A stretch of DNA of 64,000 nt from a virus (Duplodnaviria > Heunggongvirae > Uroviricota > Caudoviricetes). The DNA lies in the IMG/VR virus record IMGVR_UViG_3300046523_000117. One strand, written 5' to 3'. Position 1 is the first letter of the stretch. The number at the start of each line of letters is the position of its first letter. Of the stretch, positions 17,490 through 48,568 are shown piece by piece. Made by a program: the position numbers and the translations under genes. The notes below the pieces were generated by a model. It was not told the DNA's origin, did not search any database, and saw nothing but the letters and a program-made list of their open reading frames with translations.

Positions 17490-17674
17490 ATCGCCTTTAT
17501 ATGATCTTGAATCAATCGCTTGACAAATTTTGAACTGGCCGTATCAATCAAATCAAGGTGTGGAATATAACCTTCGAATTCTTCTTTGGTAGTCCCGTCC
17601 GCAACCATGTCTTGGAACATGGCCCGCAGGTCTGCCATATGCTGAATGATTTCTTGATTCATTATTTGATCCAA
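17486..17674 (-). CDS. hypothetical protein (62 aa)
   Basis: minus-strand ORF. Confidence 0.4.
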   Translation of the reverse strand: MDQIMNQEIIQHMADLRAMFQDMVADGTTKEEFEGYIPHLDLIDTASSKFVKRLIQDHIKAM

Positions 17675-18159
17675 TTCTTATACGGATTATCTGATAGGTT
17701 TGAATTGTAGTATTTCGGATCACCTGTAACTTCTTTGGTAACCCATGCCGGGATTATGATCGATTCTGTTTCGGAAGTCAACTCGACTTCTGCTACGATC
17801 AGTCCGGTGTTGTCACCGTGGAAAATATCAATTTCCCAGATTTTGTCATTGAGGTTTACGACATACCTTGACTTGTCGATGATTCCGGTGCATAGCAACA
17901 TCAACTGCTTGGCTTCTTCGACATCAATTTCCTTTTCCCATTCAAACCGGGATAGGCCGTCATCCGTCGATTTACCCTTTACAGTAATGAATCCACGATA
18001 GCTACCCAATCGGATTCGAACAGTTCGATTGGGATCTTGGCTCAAATAACCTTGGGTAATCCTGATTAGTGTCAATTGGCTGGGATTAACTTGCTTACCC
18101 AGCATCGTGCTATCAACCAAAAACTTACGTTCGATTTCTATCATTGCTCTGCGAACCAT
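17662..18159 (-). CDS. CYTH-domain (triphosphate tunnel metalloenzyme, CyaB/ThTPase-like) protein
   Basis: N-terminal EIERKFLV ExExK signature, ~165 aa size and acidic beta-strand pattern typical of CYTH. Confidence 0.6.
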   Translation of the reverse strand: MVRRAMIEIERKFLVDSTMLGKQVNPSQLTLIRITQGYLSQDPNRTVRIRLGSYRGFITVKGKSTDDGLSRFEWEKEIDVEEAKQLMLLCTGIIDKSRYVVNLNDKIWEIDIFHGDNTGLIVAEVELTSETESIIIPAWVTKEVTGDPKYYNSNLSDNPYKNWIK

Positions 18160-34620: not shown

Positions 34621-34956
34621 TTATTCTTGGGTTTGTGCGACCGGTGCCGGTGTCTGGATCACAGTCGGTGACGTGCTGATTTCGACCATTCGATCACATG
34701 CCAACGACCGGGCGACTTCTTCACAGTCGTATCGGTTTTGTTTGGTCTTCGGACCATTCAGATAGCATTGGTTGAACTGTTGGATCACCAATTGCTTCTG
34801 AATCAGGGATGAACAGTTATAGAACACCCGTGTAGAGTCTGTGCGATTTTCACTGTGATTGACTTCTTCTTTCGAAGCACAACCACCCAGAGTGACAAGG
34901 GCCAGAGCCAGTACAATCAATTTACCTTTCATGCGGAATTTCCTTTTGTTATCCAA
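34621..34956 (-). CDS. lipoprotein (111 aa)
   Basis: MKGKLIVLALALVTLGGCAS signal peptide plus lipobox. Confidence 0.6.
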   Translation of the reverse strand: MDNKRKFRMKGKLIVLALALVTLGGCASKEEVNHSENRTDSTRVFYNCSSLIQKQLVIQQFNQCYLNGPKTKQNRYDCEEVARSLACDRMVEISTSPTVIQTPAPVAQTQE

Positions 34957-35560
34957 TCGGATCAGTGAGAACTAGTTGACCGGTGGGGCGAATCATCCAG
35001 TTTGACCCGTGACAATCCACTTTCGCATCCGGTAACCCAGCCATCCAAATCACGATATCTGCTAGGTTGTTTGTATTGTAGTTACGGTTCCCGCGCATGT
35101 CAAACTGATTCCGCAAAAAATCTGCAATTTTCTTTCGTTTACCATTCAGGGTTTTAAACTGATTGATAAACCATTGATTTCTACAGAGTTTTACGACATT
35201 CGACATTCCGACACTATGAACGATTTCGCTTTCATAGAGCCGTTCCATACAGGCTATTGCTCGACCATCATCCACAAACATATTATAAATTTTTGGCATC
35301 AATGGATTTGAGTCCATATGCCGGGTGACATGCTCTGCGTACTGAATCCAAGGGTCAGACCCTTTCCACGACAGTTTGAACACCCGCTCAGAATCGATTT
35401 GCCCAATCACCGACGAGTAAAACCCGGTTCCGTGATATTTCCATCCAACCGGCATCAAGCGTTGAAGCTCTAGGGTTTCGTGGAAGACGCGGGGAGCGTG
35501 TTGCATTGCTCCCTGCAAATCACCAGCAATCAGACAATCAATTAGTTTTGCGACATCCAT
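34949..35560 (-). CDS. atypical protein-kinase-like fold protein (203 aa)
   Basis: HGTGFYSSV Gly-loop-like, VFKLS Lys, DCHGSNWMI (DxHxxN catalytic-loop-like), LVLTDPIG (DFG-position); paralog of 35542..36375. Confidence 0.45.
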   Translation of the reverse strand: MDVAKLIDCLIAGDLQGAMQHAPRVFHETLELQRLMPVGWKYHGTGFYSSVIGQIDSERVFKLSWKGSDPWIQYAEHVTRHMDSNPLMPKIYNMFVDDGRAIACMERLYESEIVHSVGMSNVVKLCRNQWFINQFKTLNGKRKKIADFLRNQFDMRGNRNYNTNNLADIVIWMAGLPDAKVDCHGSNWMIRPTGQLVLTDPIG

Positions 35561-36375
35561 GAAAACTTAGTGCCTTGCTCCAGTTGCGTGTAGCCATTCA
35601 AAATGTCACAGATTGGGTCAGTCAGGACCGGGAAGCCATCGCGATGCATGACGTTGCTTGAGCTGATATCGTCACAGCCACGTACAGAATTTCGGTGGTC
35701 TTCGTAAACCCTAGCAGCAACAATTGCATCAATCGGACTGTGCTTAATGAACTGCCCGAACGTAAATTCGGCATTTTCCATGTAGCGGTCCACGTCGAAG
35801 TCTTCGAAAAAGGATTCGTCGGCCAGATCACCGAGCGAACCATCCTCAAAGGACAGGCCGACGCCAAGATGCAGATGCTCTACCACAGCGATGTACAGAT
35901 GTCCACGTTGTTCAATCGATTTGATGTTAGGGATATACGGGTTCCCTTGGTGCTGCGTGCAAGTCTTCATCCAACCAAACCCACCATCTACAGGCGAATA
36001 AAAGTTGTCCCGGCAGTTGACTTTCAACACCCACTCAGGGCCGAGGCTAAACACCTCTGCGAAAGATCCATTGCCGATGAAAATAAAGCACTTAGCAAGC
36101 ACTTCGGAGATAAATTCGAGGTCATACCCACTATCAGGTACGCCATCTACCGGAGTAAACTCACTGCCGAGTTTATCCTTGGTCGCATACTTGCCGAAGA
36201 TTTGAATCAAATTCTTCGGCAAGTTACGGATATCATCTTGTACGGCCTTGACATCAGCAACTGCTTGATGTACTAGATCGTCGTAGGACGGACCAATTTT
36301 AACTACACCACCTGCAAAGGAAATGCAAAAACTATCTGCACACCCCATATCTGCAACCGCTGCAACTGCGCCCAT
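35542..36375 (-). CDS. atypical protein-kinase-like fold protein (277 aa)
   Basis: IGNGSFAEVF glycine loop, WVLKV lysine, VMHRDGFPVLTDPI catalytic/DFG-like segment. Confidence 0.5.
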   Translation of the reverse strand: MGAVAAVADMGCADSFCISFAGGVVKIGPSYDDLVHQAVADVKAVQDDIRNLPKNLIQIFGKYATKDKLGSEFTPVDGVPDSGYDLEFISEVLAKCFIFIGNGSFAEVFSLGPEWVLKVNCRDNFYSPVDGGFGWMKTCTQHQGNPYIPNIKSIEQRGHLYIAVVEHLHLGVGLSFEDGSLGDLADESFFEDFDVDRYMENAEFTFGQFIKHSPIDAIVAARVYEDHRNSVRGCDDISSSNVMHRDGFPVLTDPICDILNGYTQLEQGTKFSWMSQN

Positions 36376-38941: not shown

Positions 38942-40291
38942 TTATTGAGCTACTTTCATATCCAGCAGAAGGTCTTTTGCCGCTTTGGCACCTACCACGT
39001 TCATGAAATTGGCGGTTTCGGTTTGACGACCGTTATCACCAGCACCACCCATAACCAGTTGTGGAACCTTGGCTTTGGAGTATGCATCAGCCCAAACTTT
39101 TTCGATTTCGACACGGGCTTGCAGTTTCTGAGTCAAAGCACCGTCAGCGAGGATCACGGCTTTCTTGGCGTAGGCTTCCGCTTCGGCCTTTTCTTTCGTG
39201 GTCTTTGCATCAATTTGAGCTTGTTCAAACTTGATTTGAGAAGTTGCTTTCTCAATCGAAGCCTTTTCTTGCTCACGGGAAGCGTTGGTCAGAGCCAGTT
39301 GTTTTTCAGTTTCGGCGTTGGTGGTACGAATTACCTGATCTTTCATGGTCAGTTGACGTTGTGTTTCAACTTCCATTTCACCGTTTGCAGTAGCAAGTTT
39401 CTTTTGTTCGTCGGCAGTGATACGGCCTTGGCGAGCATAAGACAAATCAGCTTGCGATTGTTGAACTTTCTTCATGCGCTCTTTGAACTGAGGCGATGGA
39501 TCGATGTTCAAAATGTTCGCATCGGCAACAGTTACACCCAGTTTCGAGAACTGACGCTCCAGACGAATCGGCAGACCAGATTTTGCATCCAATACCTTTT
39601 CGGTAATTACAACGGTAGTTGTATCGGCACCGAATGAACCTTGTTCTTTACCATTCTGGGCAACAGCGCCTTGAGTGGCATCACGGGTATTCTTGACTTG
39701 CTTTTCAATTCGCTTGACGACATACGCACCGTCTGCAATTTGATCTTGGAAGCTCTGGCGGAATTCTGTTGCACCACCGTTGTAGTAATCGTCAGCCGAC
39801 ATCAACTGTGCAGTCGATTGCAGCGTGGATTTCATGACCGGCATGATCGATTGAAGAACAAAATTGTCGGGGCTGCGATAAGTACGAGCCAGTTGCAGGA
39901 ACTGTTCACCGTCCGGCAGTGCAACACGAACGTTCGCATCAACAGTAGCAACTACACCACCGAGGAAGGTCACCGGGAATGCTGGAATCAGAGAAGAACC
40001 CAATCCATCAAAATCACCCTTGGGTAATGTTGCGGTATCCAGTACAGATTGAACCGACATCTGGCGAGGCCACGGGGTTACCGTACCAAAACCGATGTAG
40101 GTGTAACCGGTGGTGCTTACAACCTTTTCACCTTGGGTTGGGAACTTGGTCATAACCTGAGTGATGTAACCGGCGCTGTTGTAATAGAACATGCTGCTAA
40201 ACATGAGCCAAACGAACAGAATTGCCGCTACAACGACCGCAGCCGTCCAACCGAGTTTCTTGTTTACTTCAAATCCGAGAATATTGCTCAC
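38942..40291 (-). CDS. SPFH/band-7 (stomatin/flotillin-like) membrane protein with long C-terminal coiled coil (449 aa)
   Basis: N-terminal TM (WTAAVVVAAILFVWLMF), SPFH-like core, Ala/Glu/Lys/Gln-rich flotillin-like tail. Confidence 0.55.
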   Translation of the reverse strand: MSNILGFEVNKKLGWTAAVVVAAILFVWLMFSSMFYYNSAGYITQVMTKFPTQGEKVVSTTGYTYIGFGTVTPWPRQMSVQSVLDTATLPKGDFDGLGSSLIPAFPVTFLGGVVATVDANVRVALPDGEQFLQLARTYRSPDNFVLQSIMPVMKSTLQSTAQLMSADDYYNGGATEFRQSFQDQIADGAYVVKRIEKQVKNTRDATQGAVAQNGKEQGSFGADTTTVVITEKVLDAKSGLPIRLERQFSKLGVTVADANILNIDPSPQFKERMKKVQQSQADLSYARQGRITADEQKKLATANGEMEVETQRQLTMKDQVIRTTNAETEKQLALTNASREQEKASIEKATSQIKFEQAQIDAKTTKEKAEAEAYAKKAVILADGALTQKLQARVEIEKVWADAYSKAKVPQLVMGGAGDNGRQTETANFMNVVGAKAAKDLLLDMKVAQ

Positions 40292-40440: not shown

Positions 40441-41247
40441 TCAATGGATTCTGTAAAAACTTTTTTCGAGAAATCCGGTGTCGTCTTGATCTGGGTAGCC
40501 ATACGGGTTGCAGATAACGTTGGTGTCGCCAATCATGTAGTCATGAACGATATGGACGTGACCGTGGCACCAGAAATTGATGTTAGGTCGATCCAGAATG
40601 AATTCGCTCAAATCGCTGTGATAGCCGAAGTTCATGTAATATTCGTTGGCAAATTTCGGGTCGAGGCTTTTAGCACTTGGTGGGTGATGGGTCACGACCA
40701 CACAAGGTTCCATCGAATTGCCGACTTCTTCTGCGATGTATTCCAGATCCTTTTTATGCTCGGCTTGCCAGTGACGCGGCTTGAACTTCCCATAATGATC
40801 GAATTTTTCATCGTGGTAGTCGATTACCCGGAAATCGTTCATCCCGGTACTCAGGGTGAATTCCACCACCGGGTTACCGCGATCCATATTGGTCCAGAGC
40901 GTAGCCCCAACGAATCTAATTCCATCAATTACCACAGAGTCACGAATCAGGAAGTGGATGTTATCCAAGCCTTCTGGGTTCATTTTCTGGAAATTGAACA
41001 GGTTGGTAATCGGTTTGATTACGCTGCCGTAGTATTCGTGGTTCCCCGGAACGTACACAACCGCTTTGAAGCGGTTTCCGTATTCGGTCAACAGGGGTGC
41101 GACGTTCTCAGCACGTTTCAGGGTGTGAAAATCCCCGGCGATTACCAGAACACGTTCTTTGTCACCGTTGATATGCGGCAACGACGGCATTGCAAATGAG
41201 GCGTACCACTCAAGGTGGCAATCGCTAATAAGTCTGAATTCCATCAA
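40441..41247 (-). CDS. calcineurin-like metallophosphoesterase (class-III phosphodiesterase-like)
   Basis: GDFH ... GNHEYYG ... H ... GHVHIVHD motif set. Confidence 0.65.
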   Translation of the reverse strand: MMEFRLISDCHLEWYASFAMPSLPHINGDKERVLVIAGDFHTLKRAENVAPLLTEYGNRFKAVVYVPGNHEYYGSVIKPITNLFNFQKMNPEGLDNIHFLIRDSVVIDGIRFVGATLWTNMDRGNPVVEFTLSTGMNDFRVIDYHDEKFDHYGKFKPRHWQAEHKKDLEYIAEEVGNSMEPCVVVTHHPPSAKSLDPKFANEYYMNFGYHSDLSEFILDRPNINFWCHGHVHIVHDYMIGDTNVICNPYGYPDQDDTGFLEKSFYRIH

Positions 41248-41741: not shown

Positions 41742-43259
41742 TTACGGAATGCGAATTTCGCTAAACGCCCACTCCATAATGTGGTCACCGTCTTCCCACA
41801 CCGTAACCATTTGGTCAACGATTGTGTGATTGGTTTCTTGCAGCTCGATACGATCCGAGAAGAATTTCCCGTTCGAATCTTTGAACGTGGTCACACGACC
41901 TTTCTTGGACCGTTTAACCGAGTCGGTATCCGGGTCTTTGTACAGGTCACGCCACACACCATCTACACACAGTGCAGACGCTTTCATGGCGAATTTGAGC
42001 CAATCACGGTCGCAGTGTTGCAGAAGGGCACCACCCATACCGAAAACGATGTTATCGGCAGAGTAACCAAGTGCGAACATGTTCGCATAGATTTGACGAA
42101 TGCTGGATTCGTTGATGCCGTCGCCTTGCAGAACACGGATGCAATCTGGCAGGACTTTGTAACCTTTGCTGTTGATCGTGTAACCAAAACCTTCCATCAA
42201 AATGCCGATGATTTCTACCGGGATTTCGGTTGCTACACCGGAATCTGGGCGCAGTACAAACGTACCACCAGAATTCATGATTCGAGTTTTGATCGGATCA
42301 GTTGCACACCACTTGGCGAAGCGGCGAATGCTATAAGTATCACCCACACAGGCTACGATGCCTTTGTGTTTTTCCAGCAGTTGGATCGCCATTTCCAGAG
42401 CGTTGGAATCGTCGCGGGTTTCAGCGTCAGAGTTTGCACAAACAACACTGTGTTCCGTTGCACGAACCGAGAAGGCGGGCATTTCGCCTTTCTTCACGCC
42501 GTAGAACTGTTTCAATTCGATGATAGCTTGAATGGTATCAGTACCCATCCAACCGGCCATCAAGTGAGCAGCACCGCCGATGCGAGCAGATTCGACACTG
42601 GACACACCACGGAAACCGAAGTCGTGCAGCTTGAATTGACTACCAACGCCTTCATCAACCGATTCGCGGAAAGCTTGTTCAACCACTTGACGGATGCTGT
42701 ACGAAACAGAAGCCACGGTGATTGGATACCACGCTTGCAGGAACAGCGGTTCGAAGTACGAAACCAGCCATGCAAAGTCCGGGTGGGTGTTTTCAACAGT
42801 CCACAGAACGTTGCCGGTCGGAACAATCGTGCCTTCTTTCAGGCAGCGAATGCGCAGTGGCAGACGGCCTTTGAATTTTGTCACGATTGCTTCCCAACCT
42901 TTACGGTTGAAAACGTTCGGACCCATGTGCAGTTCTACCAGTTCTTCGGCTTCGTCCACATCCTGCATGGTCAGACGACCAGAGAAGTGACGTTTCAGAA
43001 TGGCTTGCAGGCCGACAAATACGGTGTAGGTGTAACCTTCGTTGACACCGCGTACTTCGTGCTGGTCAGATCCACGCGATTCCCCGTAGGAATACAGGTA
43101 CTGTGCCCCGGCTGGGATCATTTCCCAGTGGTCGCCTTTGTACGAATCGGATTTCAGGATCAGGTTGTTTGGGTTGAAATCAAGATTAATATTGAGACTG
43201 GTCATTCTTTCGAACTCCTCGAAAATTGAATTAGTTGTTTTGTTGCGCAGCACGACCAA
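41742..43259 (-). CDS. nadV: nicotinamide phosphoribosyltransferase (NAMPT/NadV)
   Basis: 505 aa; conserved NAMPT blocks (DSYKGDHW, GYTYTVFVGLQAILKRHF, LPLRIRCLKEGT, FGFRGVSSVESA, GTDT). Confidence 0.85.
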   Translation of the reverse strand: MVVLRNKTTNSIFEEFERMTSLNINLDFNPNNLILKSDSYKGDHWEMIPAGAQYLYSYGESRGSDQHEVRGVNEGYTYTVFVGLQAILKRHFSGRLTMQDVDEAEELVELHMGPNVFNRKGWEAIVTKFKGRLPLRIRCLKEGTIVPTGNVLWTVENTHPDFAWLVSYFEPLFLQAWYPITVASVSYSIRQVVEQAFRESVDEGVGSQFKLHDFGFRGVSSVESARIGGAAHLMAGWMGTDTIQAIIELKQFYGVKKGEMPAFSVRATEHSVVCANSDAETRDDSNALEMAIQLLEKHKGIVACVGDTYSIRRFAKWCATDPIKTRIMNSGGTFVLRPDSGVATEIPVEIIGILMEGFGYTINSKGYKVLPDCIRVLQGDGINESSIRQIYANMFALGYSADNIVFGMGGALLQHCDRDWLKFAMKASALCVDGVWRDLYKDPDTDSVKRSKKGRVTTFKDSNGKFFSDRIELQETNHTIVDQMVTVWEDGDHIMEWAFSEIRIP

Positions 43260-44316
43260 TCATGGTCATGATGATGTTGTGATGGTCTTCGAAAAAGTCA
43301 GCCGCGTGTTCCGGGGCAGCGATTTCAGAGATTGGAACCCAGAACGCTTTATCAGCGTCATCGGAACCGTAAACCCGTGGCAAGCTACCGTCATGATTTG
43401 TATCAATCTTGAAAGTAAATGCGAAGGTCATGAGCCGACCGCGAAGGGAACGTTTCGGATTATCGAACCGCTTTTCGTCAATGATCGACTTGCGCAGCAC
43501 CTTTTCAGGCACATGCAGTTTTGTTTCTTCATCCAGTTCACGAATCGCACCGTCTTCAACCGTTTCATTGGTATTGACGAATCCACCGGGTAGAGCAAGT
43601 TTGCCCTTACCGGGAATGTTTTTACGACGAATCAACAGGATGTGGCTTTTGCACAGAACTACCGCGTCTGCGGTTACGTCGTTGATCGGGTATTTGGCCC
43701 GACGATGTGCGGGATACGCTTTGTGGAAATTGTATTCGGCCAGCAGTTCCCGGAACATATCAGAACTGATGAATTTTGTGTTGACATAATCCCAGACACC
43801 GGAAGGCATCATTGGGCCAGCGTCACCAAAATACCCTTCGAACATCAGTTCGCGGATTTTGGTTGCCGCCATTTCTTCGTCGCCGTGCATTTTAGCACCG
43901 GATTCGATGAAATCCCATGTTGGGAACAAATCGAGATAGAATGAACTATCATCTTTCTTGTGCCCAACGATTGCGATTTTCGGAGCTTTGATGCCGGAAA
44001 TGTAACGAGTCGAAAGACGCATTACCTCGGCAGCCCACAAATCGTTCGATGGCATGTCGTTGATGAAACTGATTCCAACGCCTTTGATACCAGCGTCGAT
44101 GGTTGCCAATTCAACCATAGCCGAACGATCACGATTACCGAATGGGTTACGTTCATCACGCGGGGCGTTTGCACTCCCCAGAATCACGACCACTCGATCA
44201 GCAATCGAATCTGCCAGTTTGATGTTGTCCAAATGGGCGTTGTGCAGTGGAGCCATTCGCCCGATGAAAATTGCTAGGTCGTACTTTTTAACGTTGGTCA
44301 CTACTGATCCCCTCAA
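43231..44316 (-). CDS. natV: bifunctional NMN adenylyltransferase / Nudix (ADP-ribose pyrophosphatase) NatV-like
   Basis: The N-terminal cytidylyltransferase fold carries an HxGH-like motif (GRMAPLHNAH). The C-terminal Nudix box is GGFVNTNETVEDGAIRELDEETKL. The gene overlaps nadV. Confidence 0.8.
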   Translation of the reverse strand: MRGSVVTNVKKYDLAIFIGRMAPLHNAHLDNIKLADSIADRVVVILGSANAPRDERNPFGNRDRSAMVELATIDAGIKGVGISFINDMPSNDLWAAEVMRLSTRYISGIKAPKIAIVGHKKDDSSFYLDLFPTWDFIESGAKMHGDEEMAATKIRELMFEGYFGDAGPMMPSGVWDYVNTKFISSDMFRELLAEYNFHKAYPAHRRAKYPINDVTADAVVLCKSHILLIRRKNIPGKGKLALPGGFVNTNETVEDGAIRELDEETKLHVPEKVLRKSIIDEKRFDNPKRSLRGRLMTFAFTFKIDTNHDGSLPRVYGSDDADKAFWVPISEIAAPEHAADFFEDHHNIIMTMIGRAAQQNN

Positions 44317-44904: not shown

Positions 44905-45948
44905 TTATGCGAAATCGAGGGTGAGCCATACCGGTTTGATTACCGATGCCGCGTGGGCACCGACTCGCTTACCAAGGACGTTCCATTCTTCGGTTTCTTG
45001 GGCCTTGTACCCATGATCTTTTTCGAAGTCTTCCAGAGCGTCACGGGTGAAATCCCCTTGCAGCCTACCGAACGACTTCTGGTCGTATACAGATTTTGAT
45101 ACAACCGCGTTAACCCGGTTCTCGCTCATGTAAGAGCAGACCTTATCCAGCAGAGCCTGTTGCTCGTCTGACAGGTTCACCGCCGACTTGATTTTTACTT
45201 CCTTGACCTTTTCACCGTACAGATGGTTCTTTTGTTTCAGAATCACCCGTTCTTCGCCCATATAGAAGTCTTCTTCATACCCGCAGATCACAAAACCTTC
45301 CGCGTAGTCAACCGGGGCTTTCTCACGATGTTCTGTTTCAAGACCAAATGCTTGTGGCACATGGGTATAGAACAACGGATCAATTTTGATCAGTTCTTCC
45401 AGCGTACCGATTTTGATGATCGGAGCATGACGCATACGGTCTTCGAACGACAAGCGAGCGATGAAGTTTGCATCAAATAGCAGGTCAACCAAATCCATGA
45501 ACGGAACGTAACGGCTGATACCGGTATCGAACGTCAGTTTCAGGTCGAATGCCATGAATTCGTTATCAGGGTGGTAGTTCACACCACCTTGAACTTTCTT
45601 GGCGGATTGAGCGCTAATCCCGTTATACGAACCACCGAAAATTTCACCGAACAGATTGATTTGAACCAGACCGGGGAACTCGCTCTTGACCAGACCAAAC
45701 AGAGCTTGGACAACTGGTTTGTATCGGGAGAAGAACCGGGAATGACCATAGAAGGTTTCAAGTTCATCGATCAAATCGTTACGGCTGGCAACCCGAATAG
45801 TAGTTCCGTCAGCAATCCACGAAAAGTTGGCACCGTGGATTTTCTCCACCGCCACCATCTGAGCATCCCCAACATGCATAGCGCATTTGTCGAGGAATCG
45901 TTGTTGGTAAGAGTTTTCGATGGAACTGTATTTAACAAATTCGCTCAC
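44905..45948 (-). CDS. rnlB: RNA ligase 2 (Rnl2, T4 gp24.1-like)
   Basis: The GTG start is preceded by AAAGGA. (V)SEFVKYSSIENSY...EKIHGANFSW aligns with the T4 Rnl2 MFKKYSSLENHY...EKIHGTNFSL KxHG ligase motif I. Confidence 0.8.
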   Translation of the reverse strand: MSEFVKYSSIENSYQQRFLDKCAMHVGDAQMVAVEKIHGANFSWIADGTTIRVASRNDLIDELETFYGHSRFFSRYKPVVQALFGLVKSEFPGLVQINLFGEIFGGSYNGISAQSAKKVQGGVNYHPDNEFMAFDLKLTFDTGISRYVPFMDLVDLLFDANFIARLSFEDRMRHAPIIKIGTLEELIKIDPLFYTHVPQAFGLETEHREKAPVDYAEGFVICGYEEDFYMGEERVILKQKNHLYGEKVKEVKIKSAVNLSDEQQALLDKVCSYMSENRVNAVVSKSVYDQKSFGRLQGDFTRDALEDFEKDHGYKAQETEEWNVLGKRVGAHAASVIKPVWLTLDFA

Positions 45949-45958
45949 AATAGATCCT

Positions 45959-46291
45959 TTATTTCTTTGGACGACCAGAATTAAGCCGGTCGTATAACAA
46001 TGTTTGTTGCAACTGGGTGATAGGCACATCCCCGTTTGCATGACCAAGTATTTTGTCCACGATGATATCTCGAAGACGTTTCATCGATGATTTGTTGAAC
46101 TTCCCTTCATCCGTATCAATACTGATGTTCACATATCCAATGTTGTTGGAATGCTTAAAAAATATCGTCAGGTAATCGTGGATAATGTCAAAGATTGTTT
46201 CTGGTGTTTCTGCGTAATACCGCGTAATTGTTGACGTAGTAACAGTCGGAGCGACTGTCACCACTTCAAATCCAACAATTAGGGCTCTCAC
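45959..46291 (-). CDS. hypothetical protein (110 aa)
   Basis: minus-strand ORF. Confidence 0.45.
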   Translation of the reverse strand: MRALIVGFEVVTVAPTVTTSTITRYYAETPETIFDIIHDYLTIFFKHSNNIGYVNISIDTDEGKFNKSSMKRLRDIIVDKILGHANGDVPITQLQQTLLYDRLNSGRPKK

Positions 46292-46566
46292 TCGGCCAAT
46301 CCCATGAGCGCACCGGCAAGGATATTAAATTTGACTTGATCTAGCATCAGATTACATCCAGCGTTGTCTTGATTAGTCATAAAACTAACCCCTTCTTCAC
46401 TATCAGAGTTATCCTGTTCACCCACGATCATTACAAAGTCACATTTGCCGGTAAGAATCTCGCCGTACATTTCATCCAGAGCTTTTTTAATTTCTGGGGT
46501 AATCTTTTCTGATGGCTTGGCAGCCGACACCAATTGAAACACTTTCTTATCTGTCATACTTCGCAC
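46288..46566 (-). CDS. hypothetical protein (92 aa)
   Basis: minus-strand ORF. Confidence 0.45.
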   Translation of the reverse strand: MRSMTDKKVFQLVSAAKPSEKITPEIKKALDEMYGEILTGKCDFVMIVGEQDNSDSEEGVSFMTNQDNAGCNLMLDQVKFNILAGALMGLAE

Positions 46567-46575
46567 CGGTTTAGA

Positions 46576-47433
46576 TCAAAAATTACCCGGCGCAACTTGG
46601 TAGCAGCGAAGCCCCATGCTACGCCAAGTCCTCACAACTTGATCACGGTCATCAAACACACCTTTTACGTTGTAATACGGTGCGATGTAACGGTGATACA
46701 AATCGTGTTTTACAGCAGAATCTTTGATATGCGATCCTTCTGGACGCATACGCAATCCATCGTAAGGCAAATCATATCGCCACAACCAATCCATAGTTTC
46801 TTCGCGACAAACTTCATCACGACCAGAAACACCGATCAGTTTATTACCAGCCGCTTCCAGAATTTTCAGAACTTCGATTACATCCGAATGCGGTTTATCA
46901 TGTCCGACTTTCTTCCAATCGAATGGGCCACGAACTCCAGTCATATCGGCAACGGTGCCGTCGATATCGTAAAGGAATGCGTCAGCTTTCAATGGATCAT
47001 ATGCCGGTGCCATAATCGGGAATTGATCCCGATACATAGCGTACATTTGTTGCACCACACCCACAGGTACAACTTTGGTCTGATCATCGCGATTTGCATT
47101 GCGTTGGATCAAATCATCAAGCAGCAGATACGGTGCAACATGAACAATTTGAATCTCAGCACCGAAGCTAGACCCAAATTTGATCAAATGTTCGCGGGTA
47201 GTCGGATTGATATTCGTATCAGATACAAATACATTCAGGTCACTCAGCAGAGCATTTCGAATCAGTTGTTCGTGTTCGTAAGTCACATGCTTTTCATCAA
47301 CGCCGTTTCCGTACCAAGATCCGTAGAGCTTTTTACGCAACAGGTCGCGTTCAACCTGTACATACCCTTGCGACACAAATTTATGCGCAAGGGTGGACTT
47401 ACCGGAGCCGGGGACTCCGATAGTCAGAACCAT
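46576..47433 (-). CDS. pseT: polynucleotide 5'-kinase/3'-phosphatase (Pnk/PseT-like)
   Basis: MVLTIGVPGSGKST P-loop at the N-terminus as in T4 Pnk; DxDGT-type phosphatase half (LYDIDGTV); the track start was TTG, so it is trimmed to the ATG one nt after the rnlA stop. Confidence 0.8.
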   Translation of the reverse strand: MVLTIGVPGSGKSTLAHKFVSQGYVQVERDLLRKKLYGSWYGNGVDEKHVTYEHEQLIRNALLSDLNVFVSDTNINPTTREHLIKFGSSFGAEIQIVHVAPYLLLDDLIQRNANRDDQTKVVPVGVVQQMYAMYRDQFPIMAPAYDPLKADAFLYDIDGTVADMTGVRGPFDWKKVGHDKPHSDVIEVLKILEAAGNKLIGVSGRDEVCREETMDWLWRYDLPYDGLRMRPEGSHIKDSAVKHDLYHRYIAPYYNVKGVFDDRDQVVRTWRSMGLRCYQVAPGNF

Positions 47434-47434
47434 T

Positions 47435-48568
47435 TTAGTCAGACGATGTTCCTTCAAATTCTTTCAAGATATAATTGGAATAGTTCTTTTGCATGAACTC
47501 TTTGGCCTGTGTTTCCCAATCACGCCCAACAAATCGGGACATTTGGATGTTAAACACCCAATCGGAATATTCGGCCTTCGCAGCAATGGCGTAGTCTTTT
47601 TGAGACAGATCCTTGTTACGGTCATGAAATGATTCTACCACAGAACAGGTATGGTTATAAACAGAACTGATAGAAATTTCGTAAGCATTGATTTTGTCCA
47701 ATACCGCTTGGTCGTCCGAGAACAAAACCTTGAGGTCGTCAATCTGTTCCGAAAGAATCAGTTCGATCAACGCACGGGTGTTCTGTACGTTGTCCTTGTT
47801 ACGGTGCAACGCCAGATACCACGGGCATTTCATTTTGAAGTAAACCCCATTTTTGGTCAGGGCTACAACGCCTTCGGTGCCGGTCAGGTTGTTGATTGCG
47901 GTTGCCAGCAAGCCGGTGTACTGGAATTCTTCAACCCAGATATCATCAACCCCGGCCAGACCCAAATCATCAATCAGGTCTTGTCCGTAAACAGTTCCGG
48001 TATGATTGTCAATGATGCTCAGGCCAATCAGTTTTGGTTGTTGATAACCGACCACGATACGGTTCCACGGCGCACACCATTCAAGATTAGTCGTGAAGTC
48101 GCGGGATGCGAGGAACCGCAGATCCGCCAGCAAGGCTGGTTGGGTCTTGAGGAACGCCATTGCATCATTACATTGAACCGATCCGGTAGAACCTTTCGAT
48201 TTCAGACGCAATTCGCCGTTGGTATGCAGGTAGGTAGACATCAACGAACCGTCTTCCTTGACCATGCACATTGCCAAATCATCCATCGGCAATTCCATCG
48301 TGAATGGATTTTCACCCAGATTGAAGAATTTCTTCGGAGGACGGCAAACCAAATCGTCAAAGTTGCCTTTGCGATCTACCAGAAACATGGTGCCACGACA
48401 TTCCAGCGCACCGGGTTTGCAGAAATCCGAATAGCTTGCCAGACGGTAGTTAAAGATCCGGTACATACGTTCCGGGTCGTCCGCTGGGAAGTCTTTGAAG
48501 AAGAATGCATCACCGGTCAGGGTCAATTGCATCAATTGATCGTAAAGCTGGAATGGGTTGGTGGACAT
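47435..48568 (-). CDS. rnlA: RNA ligase 1 (RnlA, T4 gene 63-like)
   Basis: 377 aa; YRIFNYRLASYSDF ... LECRGTMF ... KKFFNLGENPFTM ... VKEDGSLMSTYL match T4 Rnl1 blocks including the KxDG nucleotidyl-transfer motif. Confidence 0.85.
   Translation of the reverse strand: MSTNPFQLYDQLMQLTLTGDAFFFKDFPADDPERMYRIFNYRLASYSDFCKPGALECRGTMFLVDRKGNFDDLVCRPPKKFFNLGENPFTMELPMDDLAMCMVKEDGSLMSTYLHTNGELRLKSKGSTGSVQCNDAMAFLKTQPALLADLRFLASRDFTTNLEWCAPWNRIVVGYQQPKLIGLSIIDNHTGTVYGQDLIDDLGLAGVDDIWVEEFQYTGLLATAINNLTGTEGVVALTKNGVYFKMKCPWYLALHRNKDNVQNTRALIELILSEQIDDLKVLFSDDQAVLDKINAYEISISSVYNHTCSVVESFHDRNKDLSQKDYAIAAKAEYSDWVFNIQMSRFVGRDWETQAKEFMQKNYSNYILKEFEGTSSD

What the first reader, a model, noticed from the sequence alone, without database searches (positions are those of the whole stretch)
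41742..44316. NadV-NatV NAD+ salvage pair (NAMPT + NMNAT/Nudix), a two-enzyme NAD+ reconstitution pathway
A 505-aa nicotinamide phosphoribosyltransferase with the conserved NAMPT sequence blocks overlaps a 361-aa protein that fuses an NMN adenylyltransferase domain to a Nudix hydrolase (box GGFVNTNETVEDGAIRELDEETKL). The same arrangement is known from Vibrio phage KVP40. It was, to my recollection, reported in 2024 as an NAD+ reconstitution pathway (NARP2) that lets phages rebuild NAD+ from the nicotinamide plus ADP-ribose left by NAD+-depleting immune effectors (Thoeris TIR, SIR2, SEFIR). Its presence here argues that this phage meets such defences, and is a pointer toward a KVP40-like (Vibrio or Aeromonas T4-type) lineage.
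Basis: established knowledge. Interest (0 to 1): 0.7.

Follow-up and report, generated by a model that had tools for sequence, protein, structure and literature searches.

The report
Phage NAD+ salvage gene pair (NARP2-type)
This uncultured T4-like phage, related to Pseudomonas phages, carries two adjacent genes for rebuilding the cofactor NAD+ from nicotinamide; this is a known phage trick against bacterial defences that destroy NAD+, so it is a sound but ordinary annotation.

Summary
Both genes are real and correctly identified. One is a nicotinamide phosphoribosyltransferase (NAMPT/NadV). The other is an NMN adenylyltransferase fused to a Nudix hydrolase (NadM-Nudix/NatV). The 505 aa and 361 aa lengths and the "overlap" come from reading the longest ORFs. 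The likely genes are 41742-43205 (487 aa) and 43231-44301 (356 aa), separated by a 25-nt spacer with a Shine-Dalgarno site. Gene calls on the source contig agree.

All 16 NAMPT residues checked are conserved. Its specificity helix is Nampt-type, not the NARP1 Namat type, and no Adps gene is in the window. The NMNAT motif reads HNAH, not HxGH. Both histidines are invariant, the variant recurs in other lineages, and the domain is under purifying selection, so I do not treat it as disabling.

The pair matches KVP40 NadV and NatV (42% and 37% identity), the proteins that define NARP2.

- The two genes are 43 kb apart in KVP40.
- NARP2 starts from PRPP plus nicotinamide. The direct ADP-ribose route is NARP1.
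- The nearest relatives are Pseudomonas phages Astolliot and Milchi, not Vibrio or Aeromonas phages.

This is a new member of a known kind, of low interest. Activity and any counter-defence role are inferred, not tested.

The parts
43231..44301 (-). natV-like gene: bifunctional NMN adenylyltransferase (about residues 1-185) plus Nudix hydrolase (about residues 200-356), 356 aa, GTG start
   Evidence: Pfam CTP_transf_like and NUDIX. Full-length alignment to Synechocystis NadM-Nudix 2QJO (E 2.5e-72) and Francisella 2QJT (E 1.7e-48). 37% identical to KVP40 NatV. The same 356-aa gene call is made on the source contig. dN/dS is 0.15-0.18.
44309..44314 (-). Shine-Dalgarno GAGGGG, 7 nt upstream of the natV GTG start
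   Evidence: Read directly from the sequence.
44233..44262 (-). NMNAT ATP-binding motif GRMAPLHNAH (residues 14-23), a variant of GxFxPx[H/T]xxH with M for F and HNAH instead of HxGH
   Evidence: Survey of 120 homologs. Published signature from PMC5889475.
43852..43872 (-). Second NMNAT motif MAATKIR (residues 144-150), equivalent to ISSTxxR, with Thr and Arg conserved
   Evidence: Aligns to SSTAIR in 2QJO and NATEFR in 2QJT.
43516..43587 (-). Nudix box GGFVNTNETVEDGAIRELDEETKL (residues 239-262), fitting Gx5Ex7REUxEExGU with K in place of the last G
   Evidence: The downstream block FDNPKRSLRGR matches FDAPGRSLRGR of 2QJO.
43206..43230 (-). 25-nt intergenic spacer containing Shine-Dalgarno GAGGAG (43215-43220), with no promoter-like or terminator-like site
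   Evidence: The spacer is 20-27 nt with GAGGAG or GAGGGG in all six clade members examined.
41742..43205 (-). nadV-like gene: nicotinamide phosphoribosyltransferase (NAMPT), 487 aa, ATG start
   Evidence: Pfam NAMPT_N and NAPRTase. NCBIfam PRK09198 at 497 bits, above the 405 cut-off. PDB 7yqo at 1.9e-112 and 2gvl at 4.5e-95. 42% identical to KVP40 NadV. All 16 active-site residues checked are conserved. The clamp helix is Nampt-type. dN/dS is 0.11-0.17.
42450..42452 (-). Codon for His252, equivalent to the catalytic, autophosphorylated His247 of human NAMPT
   Evidence: Alignment to 2gvl. The ATEHS block is conserved in all homologs aligned.

Best explanation
The two genes form a co-directional, probably co-transcribed cassette (natV then nadV) encoding a two-enzyme nicotinamide salvage route to NAD+.

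Proposed steps:
1. NAMPT condenses nicotinamide with PRPP to give NMN.
2. The N-terminal domain of NatV adenylylates NMN with ATP to give NAD+.
3. The C-terminal Nudix domain most likely hydrolyses ADP-ribose to AMP and ribose-5-phosphate. Host PRPP synthetase can turn that into PRPP, linking the pathway indirectly to the debris left by NAD+-cleaving effectors.

The pathway should raise or restore NAD+ during infection, so it can blunt host defences that abort infection by destroying NAD+. These include TIR, SIR2 and RES-type effectors. This is the NARP2 strategy.

Shown here: gene boundaries, domain architecture, catalytic residues, Nampt-type rather than Namat-type specificity elements, homology to the characterised KVP40 and bacterial enzymes, purifying selection, and conserved linkage.

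Inferred: enzymatic activity, co-transcription, early expression, Nudix substrate, and the counter-defence role.
For: Homology:
- KVP40 NadV 42% identical (E 1e-111) and NatV 37% (E 1e-63). These two proteins abolished type I Thoeris and DSR2 defence and raised NAD+, and also cancelled aRES and Nezha.
- Full-length matches to solved NAMPTs and to NadM-Nudix 2QJO and 2QJT.

Catalytic residues:
- NAMPT equivalents of human D16, Y18, F193, R196, D219, H247, R311, D313, G353, D354, G383, G384, R392, K400, K415 and K423 are all conserved.
- The clamp helix reads GMGGALLQH, like KVP40 GMGGGLLQQ. It is unlike the aromatic GVGSYTYQY of a NARP1-type Namat (discriminator from PMC12774641).
- NMNAT: both His of the motif and the T..R of the second motif are invariant in 120 homologs. 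The Nudix REx2EE core is intact.

Selection and linkage:
- dN/dS is 0.17-0.20 for the NMNAT domain, 0.09-0.10 for Nudix and 0.11-0.17 for NAMPT.
- No Adps/Prs homolog in the window.
- natV-nadV adjacency with a 20-27 nt Shine-Dalgarno spacer is conserved down to 55% NatV identity. The genes are linked in more distant lineages and in cultured phages YB07 and RHph_X66.
- Iyer et al. 2022 report that every NadM-encoding phage also has NadV.

Context: the pair sits in an early-type region with AsiA, next to the Rnl1-Pnkp-Rnl2 RNA-repair set.
Against: - No activity was measured.
- The NMNAT motif departs from the canonical GRFQPFHxGH at four positions (GRMAPLHNAH). All five cultured-phage NatVs checked, including the characterised KVP40 enzyme, have HxGH, as do 2QJO and 2QJT. 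No HxAH-type NadM-Nudix enzyme is known to me to have been assayed.
- NatV scores 292 bits or less against the NCBIfam PRK05379 equivalog models, below their cut-offs of 354-449.
- No PRPP synthetase was found in the window or in Milchi's annotation, so PRPP supply depends on the host.
- The counter-defence role rests only on analogy with KVP40 genes tested in heterologous hosts.
- NARP2 also raises NAD+ without any defence present, so a purely metabolic benefit cannot be separated from counter-defence.
- The host and its defence repertoire are unknown.
Confidence: 0.78

Rival explanations
1. The pair is a general metabolic booster, an auxiliary metabolic gene set. It raises NAD+ to support the high redox and biosynthetic demand of a large lytic phage, or the phage's own NAD+-consuming enzymes, independent of host immunity.
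For: - NARP2 makes excess NAD+ even in cells with no defence system.
- KVP40 itself encodes a Sir2/CobB NAD-dependent enzyme.
- The pair is enriched in medium and jumbo phages.
- This reading is not mutually exclusive with counter-defence.
Against: - No ADP-ribosyltransferase, sirtuin, Macro domain or NAD+-dependent ligase was found among the screened window ORFs.
- None is annotated in Milchi, whose ligase is ATP-dependent. Most genes there are hypothetical, and 111-125 kb was not fetched.
- NARP2 is costly and somewhat toxic, which argues for a strong specific selective benefit.
Confidence: 0.15
2. The NMNAT domain of this clade has lost or changed its activity because of the GRMAPLHNAH motif, for example by preferring NaMN or another nucleotide. 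NatV would then act mainly as an ADP-ribose or NAD(H) pyrophosphatase, and the host's own adenylyltransferase would complete NAD+ synthesis.
For: - Four substitutions in the most conserved motif relative to 2QJO, 2QJT and KVP40.
- The NMNAT domain evolves about twice as fast as the Nudix domain.
- The CTP_transf_like Pfam hit is only weak in some clade members.
- NatV scores below the NCBIfam equivalog cut-offs.
Against: - Both catalytic His and the second-motif T..R are invariant.
- HxAH arose independently in 16 of 85 non-clade homologs.
- The published NMNAT signature, GxFxPx[H/T]xxH, does not require Gly.
- The position where the window has M varies among F, M, Y, H and C in the family.
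- dN/dS of 0.17-0.20 shows the domain is maintained.
- The strict natV-nadV coupling makes sense only if NMN is consumed by NatV.
Confidence: 0.05
3. The phosphoribosyltransferase is really a NARP1-type Namat that ligates ADPR-pyrophosphate with nicotinamide. That would rebuild NAD+ directly from ADP-ribose.
For: - Namat and Nampt are homologs sharing the catalytic core.
- KVP40 Nampt shows a minor side activity on ADPR-PP.
Against: - The clamp helix lacks the Namat aromatic residues: the window has A393 and H397, where a NARP1-type Namat has GSYTYQY.
- 33% identity to the NARP1-type Namat, against 40-43% to NARP2-type Nampts.
- No Adps/Prs-like gene in the window (best tblastn E 0.024) or in Milchi's annotation.
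- An Nmnat partner is adjacent, which is the NARP2 hallmark.
Confidence: 0.02

Closest known systems
NARP2 of Vibrio phage KVP40 (NadV KVP40.0264 + NatV KVP40.0162; Osterman et al. 2024; biochemistry by Lee et al. 2017, cited from memory, paper not held)
   Same: Same two protein families and domain architectures. The window proteins are 42% and 37% identical over nearly full length. The clamp helix is Nampt-type. The Nudix box and catalytic histidines are conserved.
   Different: - The genes are adjacent here (25-nt spacer) but 43 kb apart in KVP40.
- The NMNAT motif is GRMAPLHNAH here and GRFRPFHNGH in KVP40.
- The host lineage differs: relatives infect Pseudomonas, not Vibrio.
- Each window protein scores higher against a bacterial enzyme than against the KVP40 one. 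NAMPT: Xanthomonas 380 bits against 327. NatV: Synechocystis 247 bits against 194. The bacterial scores are from phmmer and the KVP40 scores from BLASTP, so they are only roughly comparable.
Pseudomonas phages Astolliot (OM982621) and Milchi (PQ464597), gene pairs annotated as phosphoribosyltransferase plus adenylyltransferase/cytidyltransferase
   Same: - Closest cultured relatives: NAMPT 80-81% and NatV 64% aa identity.
- Same order, strand and short Shine-Dalgarno spacer.
- Same flanking genes: metallophosphoesterase, GH108 endolysin, Rnl2, Pnkp.
- Same HxAH motif (HTAH).
   Different: - About 75% nt identity, and only over the pair itself.
- The window phage also carries Rnl1 next to Pnkp, which was not found in the fetched parts of Milchi.
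- Milchi's natV annotation starts 20 codons too late, cutting off the motif's Gly-Arg.
- Astolliot labels the enzymes as nicotinate-specific.
Bacterial NadM-Nudix (Synechocystis slr0787, PDB 2QJO; Francisella, 2QJT/2R5W) and bacterial or mammalian NAMPT (Xanthomonas 7yqo; mammalian 2gvl)
   Same: Full-length alignments at E 2.5e-72, 1.7e-48, 1.9e-112 and 4.5e-95. Catalytic residues are conserved.
   Different: - Phage-encoded.
- HxAH instead of HxGH.
- The window NAMPT has a long beta1-beta2 loop, similar in length to mammalian NAMPT and longer than in Xanthomonas or KVP40.
NARP1 (Adps + Namat) and NARP3 (PnuC + NadR-like)
   Same: Same end product and the same presumed purpose: NAD+ reconstitution during infection. 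Namat is a homolog of NAMPT.
   Different: - NARP1 needs a Prs-like Adps gene and a Namat with an aromatic selectivity clamp. Neither is present here.
- NARP3 uses nicotinamide riboside through PnuC and an RNK-NMNAT enzyme. No such genes were seen among the window ORFs screened or in Milchi's annotation.

Membership tests
NARP2 (phage Nampt + Nmnat NAD+ reconstitution pathway) | Phage genome encodes a homolog of KVP40 Nampt (the original survey used E < 1e-5) | tested here: met
   BLASTP against KVP40 NadV gives 42% identity and E 1e-111. The phage context is T4-like: AsiA, topoisomerase II, gp43-like polymerase, clamp loader and RegA-like repressor.
NARP2 (phage Nampt + Nmnat NAD+ reconstitution pathway) | The same genome encodes a homolog of KVP40 Nmnat (NatV) | tested here: met
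   BLASTP against KVP40 NatV gives 37% identity and E 1e-63. The gene lies 25 nt upstream of the Nampt gene.
NARP2 (phage Nampt + Nmnat NAD+ reconstitution pathway) | The phosphoribosyltransferase belongs to the Nampt clade (prefers PRPP), not the Adps-associated Namat clade | tested here: met
   The clamp helix GMGGALLQH lacks the Namat aromatic residues (criterion from PMC12774641). No Adps/Prs homolog in the window. Substrate preference itself was not measured.
NARP2 (phage Nampt + Nmnat NAD+ reconstitution pathway) | The pair restores NAD+ and relieves NAD+-depleting defence | not testable with these tools
   This needs NAD+ measurements and plaque assays on defence-carrying hosts.
NAMPT / NadV (nicotinamide phosphoribosyltransferase) | NAMPT_N plus type II PRTase barrel, above curated thresholds | tested here: met
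   PF18127 at 86.5 bits (cut-off 25), PF04095 at 128.9 bits (cut-off 20.8), NCBIfam PRK09198 at 497 bits (cut-off 405).
NAMPT / NadV (nicotinamide phosphoribosyltransferase) | Catalytic and substrate residues: autophosphorylated His247, nicotinamide-selective Asp219, stacking Tyr18 and Phe193, and phosphoribosyl-binding Arg196, Arg311, Asp313, Arg392, Lys400, Lys415 and Lys423 (human numbering; residue roles given from established knowledge) | tested here: met
   All are conserved in the alignment to 2gvl. In window numbering they are H252, D223, Y22, F196, R199, R319, D321, R400, K408, K423 and K431.
NadM-Nudix bifunctional NMN adenylyltransferase / ADP-ribose pyrophosphatase | Two-domain architecture aligned end to end with a solved family member | tested here: met
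   Query residues 6-349 align to residues 6-339 of 2QJO at E 2.5e-72. Pfam finds CTP_transf_like and NUDIX.
   The motif is H-N-A-H within GRMAPLHNAH. Both His are present. HxAH is fixed in most of the window clade and occurs in 16 of 85 other homologs.
NadM-Nudix bifunctional NMN adenylyltransferase / ADP-ribose pyrophosphatase | [quoted passage not shown] | tested here: inconclusive
   G, P, H and H are present, but M replaces F. Homologs carry F, M, Y, H or C at that position. The second motif is MAATKIR, which keeps T and R as Francisella NATEFR does. Sequence alone cannot settle whether the M/A variant is fully active.
NadM-Nudix bifunctional NMN adenylyltransferase / ADP-ribose pyrophosphatase | Nudix box Gx5Ex7REUxEExGU with catalytic glutamates | tested here: met
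   G-FVNTN-E-TVEDGAI-RE-L-D-EE-T-K-L. Only the last G is replaced, by K, as in many homologs. The FDxPxRSLRGR block is shared with 2QJO.
NadM-Nudix bifunctional NMN adenylyltransferase / ADP-ribose pyrophosphatase | NCBIfam PRK05379 equivalog score cut-off | tested here: not met
   The best score is 291.7 bits, against cut-offs of 354-449 for the seven sub-models. This is a divergent subfamily by that curated standard.
NARP1 (Adps + Namat) | Prs-like Adps gene next to a Namat with an aromatic selectivity clamp | tested here: not met
   No Adps homolog (best tblastn E 0.024), and the clamp helix is Nampt-type.

The most novel reading that the evidence does not exclude
The clade-specific NMNAT motif (GRMAPLH[N/D/T]AH) marks a functional shift in NatV. 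The shift could be altered nucleotide or pyridine-mononucleotide specificity or altered regulation. Alternatively, the Nudix domain may also destroy ADP-ribose-derived immune signals such as Thoeris gcADPR. Either way, this tightly coupled cassette beside the RNA-repair genes would do more than canonical NARP2.
Probability: 0.07. Interest if true: 0.5.

Novelty: new member of a known kind. Interest (0 to 1): 0.2.

Why it matters
It adds one more uncultured T4-like phage lineage, related to Pseudomonas phages and to soil or compost metagenome contigs, to the roughly 1% of phages reported to carry NARP2. In this lineage the two genes form a compact, conserved cassette rather than being scattered as in KVP40.

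Practical points:
- The corrected gene boundaries and the motif survey are useful for annotation. Milchi's natV is called too short, Astolliot labels the enzymes as nicotinate-specific, and PHROGs names NatV only as a cytidyltransferase.
- The HxAH variant is a cheap biochemical question.

Nothing here changes the current picture of phage NAD+ counter-defence.

Tried and rejected
1. Metallophosphoesterase (40441-41247) as a third pathway component, prompted by its recurrence near the pair and by the report of NARP1-associated phosphatases. Rejected for three reasons. The NARP1 phosphatase is a Macro-domain protein. The metallophosphoesterases in distant lineages L018 and L019 are not orthologous (E 0.26 or worse). 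The window's version has a KVP40 homolog (KVP40.0051) that is unlinked to natV and nadV. It also has no PDB sequence match.
2. SPFH/Band-7 neighbour, which recurs in the window clade, RHph_X66 and KLB3. No sequence similarity was found between them, so the recurrence is at domain level only. I left it as a note.
3. NARP1/Namat reading. Rejected on the clamp residues and the absence of Adps.
4. Promoter and terminator scan of 40.2-46.4 kb. The counts are at or below the shuffle expectation, and nothing lies between the two genes. It was not informative about operon boundaries.
5. Rfam scan and tRNA scan of the whole window found nothing.
6. Megablast of window 1-25000 against phages found nothing. 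At the protein level this part matches Milchi's right end only patchily.
7. Search for NAD+ consumers or a PRPP synthetase in 30 window ORFs and in Milchi's annotation found none. Milchi 111-125 kb was not fetched.
8. The primary KVP40 biochemistry paper (Lee et al. 2017, J Bacteriol) is not in the library. Its content is cited only through Osterman et al.
9. Structure prediction was not run. The full-length sequence matches to solved structures made it unnecessary.
Full report
**Observation**

The quoted Nudix box is in the second. Both begin at TTG only because those are the longest possible readings.

- For the first gene, an ATG at 43205 is preceded at 9 nt by GAGGAG. The Milchi and Astolliot proteins begin at the aligned Met.
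- For the second gene, a GTG at 44301 is preceded at 7 nt by GAGGGG.
- The window's own sequence sits on an 82,123-bp metagenome-assembled contig (Logan SRR26076529). An independent gene caller there gives 356 aa and 487 aa with a 25-nt gap.

So the genes are adjacent, not overlapping. The corrected coordinates are 43231-44301 (natV-like) and 41742-43205 (nadV-like).

**What the proteins are**

The downstream gene is a nicotinamide phosphoribosyltransferase.
- Pfam NAMPT_N and NAPRTase, and NCBIfam PRK09198 at 497 bits against a cut-off of 405.
- PHROG 448.
- Xanthomonas NAMPT 7yqo at E 1.9e-112 and mammalian NAMPT 2gvl at E 4.5e-95.

The upstream gene aligns end to end with the bifunctional NMN adenylyltransferase/ADP-ribose pyrophosphatases of Synechocystis (2QJO, E 2.5e-72) and Francisella (2QJT, E 1.7e-48). 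It has Pfam CTP_transf_like and NUDIX domains. It scores below the NCBIfam PRK05379 equivalog cut-offs (292 bits or less against 354-449), so it is a divergent member of that family.

In the alignment to 2gvl, every NAMPT residue I checked is conserved. In human numbering these are D16, Y18, F193, R196, D219, H247, R311, D313, G353, D354, G383, G384, R392, K400, K415 and K423. The roles of these residues come from established knowledge.

The NMNAT motif does not read HxGH. It is GRMAPLHNAH, where 2QJO, 2QJT and KVP40 have GRFQPFHxGH or GRFRPFHNGH. I surveyed 120 homologs and found the following.
- Both histidines are invariant, as are the Thr and Arg of the second motif.
- HxAH is fixed in nearly all of the window's clade (P0001-P0035, at least 55% identical).
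- HxAH also occurs in 16 of 85 more distant homologs on otherwise canonical motifs, such as GRFQPFHNAH and GRFQPLHNAH.
- The Phe position is F, M, Y, H or C across the family.

The published NMNAT signature is GxFxPx[H/T]xxH plus ISSTxxR, so Gly is not a defining position (PMC5889475). Pairwise dN/dS within the clade is 0.17-0.20 for the NMNAT domain, 0.09-0.10 for the Nudix domain and 0.11-0.17 for NAMPT. I therefore read HNAH as a tolerated variant rather than a loss of function. However, no enzyme carrying it has, to my knowledge, been assayed, so I record the literal test as not met.

**NARP2 or NARP1**

Nampt (NARP2) and Namat (NARP1) are homologs with the same catalytic core. PMC12774641 shows that Namat specificity comes from a selectivity clamp whose helix carries two extra aromatic residues, and that NARP1 needs a Prs-like Adps gene.
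- The window protein has GMGGALLQH at that helix, like KVP40 (GMGGGLLQQ). A NARP1-type Namat from Bacillus phage LBC2 has GVGSYTYQY.
- It is 40-43% identical to NARP2-type Nampts and 33% identical to the Namat.
- tblastn with the LBC2 Adps finds nothing credible in the window (best E 0.024).

**Comparison with KVP40**

BLASTP gives 42% identity (E 1e-111) to NadV and 37% (E 1e-63) to NatV. Those two KVP40 proteins define NARP2. Expressed together, they abolished type I Thoeris and DSR2 defence and raised NAD+. They later also cancelled aRES and Nezha.

The pathway runs from PRPP + nicotinamide to NMN, then to NAD+ with ATP. ADP-ribose can enter NARP2 only indirectly, through ribose-5-phosphate made by the Nudix domain and a PRPP synthetase. 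No PRPP synthetase is in the window or in Milchi's annotation.

The KVP40 genes are not arranged as they are here. natV is at 94.5 kb and nadV at 138.2 kb. They are also unlinked in the KVP40 relatives VH7D, D483 and nt-1.

**Lineage**

The only megablast hits to the region are Pseudomonas phages Milchi (host P. poae) and Astolliot (host P. syringae), both about 174 kb, at roughly 75% nt identity. At the protein level NAMPT is 80-81% identical and NatV 64%.

The window is collinear with Milchi from about 5 to 52 kb. It carries T4-type genes: AsiA, topoisomerase II, primase, helicase, UvsX-like, DNA polymerase, RegA-like repressor and clamp loader. Its first 17 kb matches Milchi's right end only patchily. 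Vibrio and Aeromonas phage homologs are only 35-42% identical. The phage is T4-like, but the pointer to a KVP40-like Vibrio or Aeromonas lineage is not supported.

**Linkage**

The order AsiA, cell-wall hydrolase, Rnl1, Pnkp, Rnl2, (GH108 endolysin), NatV, NAMPT, metallophosphoesterase, Band-7 is conserved in metagenomic relatives down to 55% NatV identity. The NatV-NAMPT spacer there is 20-27 nt and always carries GAGGAG or GAGGGG. The scan found no promoter-like or terminator-like site between the two genes, so co-transcription is likely but inferred.

In more distant relatives (46% identity or less), two small ORFs separate the genes. Direct adjacency also exists in cultured phages YB07 (21-nt spacer) and RHph_X66 (2-nt spacer), but not in XacN1, KLB3 or KVP40. 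The arrangement is therefore not new.

**Rivals**

- A purely metabolic role cannot be excluded, because NARP2 makes excess NAD+ even without a defence system. I found no NAD+-consuming enzyme in 30 screened window ORFs or in Milchi's annotation.
- An inactive or altered NMNAT domain is unlikely, for the reasons given under catalytic residues.
- The Namat reading is rejected.
- A metallophosphoesterase or an SPFH protein as a third component was considered and rejected, or left as a weak note.

**Verdict**

This is a correct identification of a known system in a new, uncultured member of a Pseudomonas-phage-related T4-like clade. Interest is low (0.2). The only mildly unusual feature is the clade-wide HxAH/Met variant of the NMNAT motif.

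Noticed in passing
window 44905-48568 (-): A complete T4-type RNA-repair set lies directly upstream of the pair: Rnl2 (44905-46047), Pnkp (46576-47457) and Rnl1 (47435-48568). Rnl1 is present in metagenomic relatives L012, L014 and L015. It has no homolog in the fetched parts of Milchi (1-111 kb and 125-175 kb).
   Followed up: partly
window 42001-44000: This bin has the highest GC in the window (0.494 against about 0.46) and the only non-negative GC skew. NatV is 48.6% GC and NAMPT 50.3%. This could reflect acquisition from a higher-GC source or simply the composition of conserved enzyme genes.
   Followed up: no
window 40441-41247 (-): A calcineurin-like metallophosphoesterase (phrog_1649) sits just downstream of NAMPT and is conserved there across the clade. 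It has a KVP40 homolog (KVP40.0051, 31% identity, E 9e-27) unlinked to natV and nadV. It has no PDB sequence match. The metallophosphoesterases near the pair in L018 and L019 are not orthologous.
   Followed up: yes
window 38942-40291 (-); L025 5328-6032; L026 1389-2315: An SPFH/Band-7 (prohibitin-like) gene lies within about 1.5 kb of NatV or NAMPT in three lineages: the window clade, Rhizobium phage RHph_X66 and Klebsiella phage KLB3. The proteins show no detectable sequence similarity to each other.
   Followed up: partly
window 34949-36375 (-): Two adjacent paralogous ORFs (203 aa and 277 aa) match phrog_15752, a protein kinase annotated as an inhibitor of host transcription. Milchi has a further pair at 153.6-155.2 kb.
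   Followed up: no
window 17662-18159 (-): A 165-aa ORF with a CYTH domain (E 7.7e-16), which marks triphosphate-tunnel metalloenzymes. It is 60% identical to a hypothetical protein of Milchi.
   Followed up: no
L001 9442-10467 (Milchi) and L002 (Astolliot): There are annotation problems in the cultured relatives. Milchi's natV is called 20 codons short, starting at MAPLH and losing the Gly-Arg of the motif. Astolliot labels the pair as nicotinate-specific enzymes. Astolliot's record also gives the genus Otagovirus (Vandenendeviridae), which looks inconsistent with a 173-kb T4-like gene set.
   Followed up: partly
L007 4160-5053 (KVP40.0259): KVP40 has a second, shorter ORF annotated as matching PF04095 (NAPRTase family), about 3 kb upstream of nadV and next to two radical-SAM genes.
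   Followed up: no
window 1-64000: The window has no tRNA gene and no Rfam family hit. Milchi carries a large tRNA island at 58-79 kb, just beyond the region collinear with the window. Window 1-17 kb matches Milchi's right end (157-172 kb) only patchily and had no megablast hit in any phage.
   Followed up: partly
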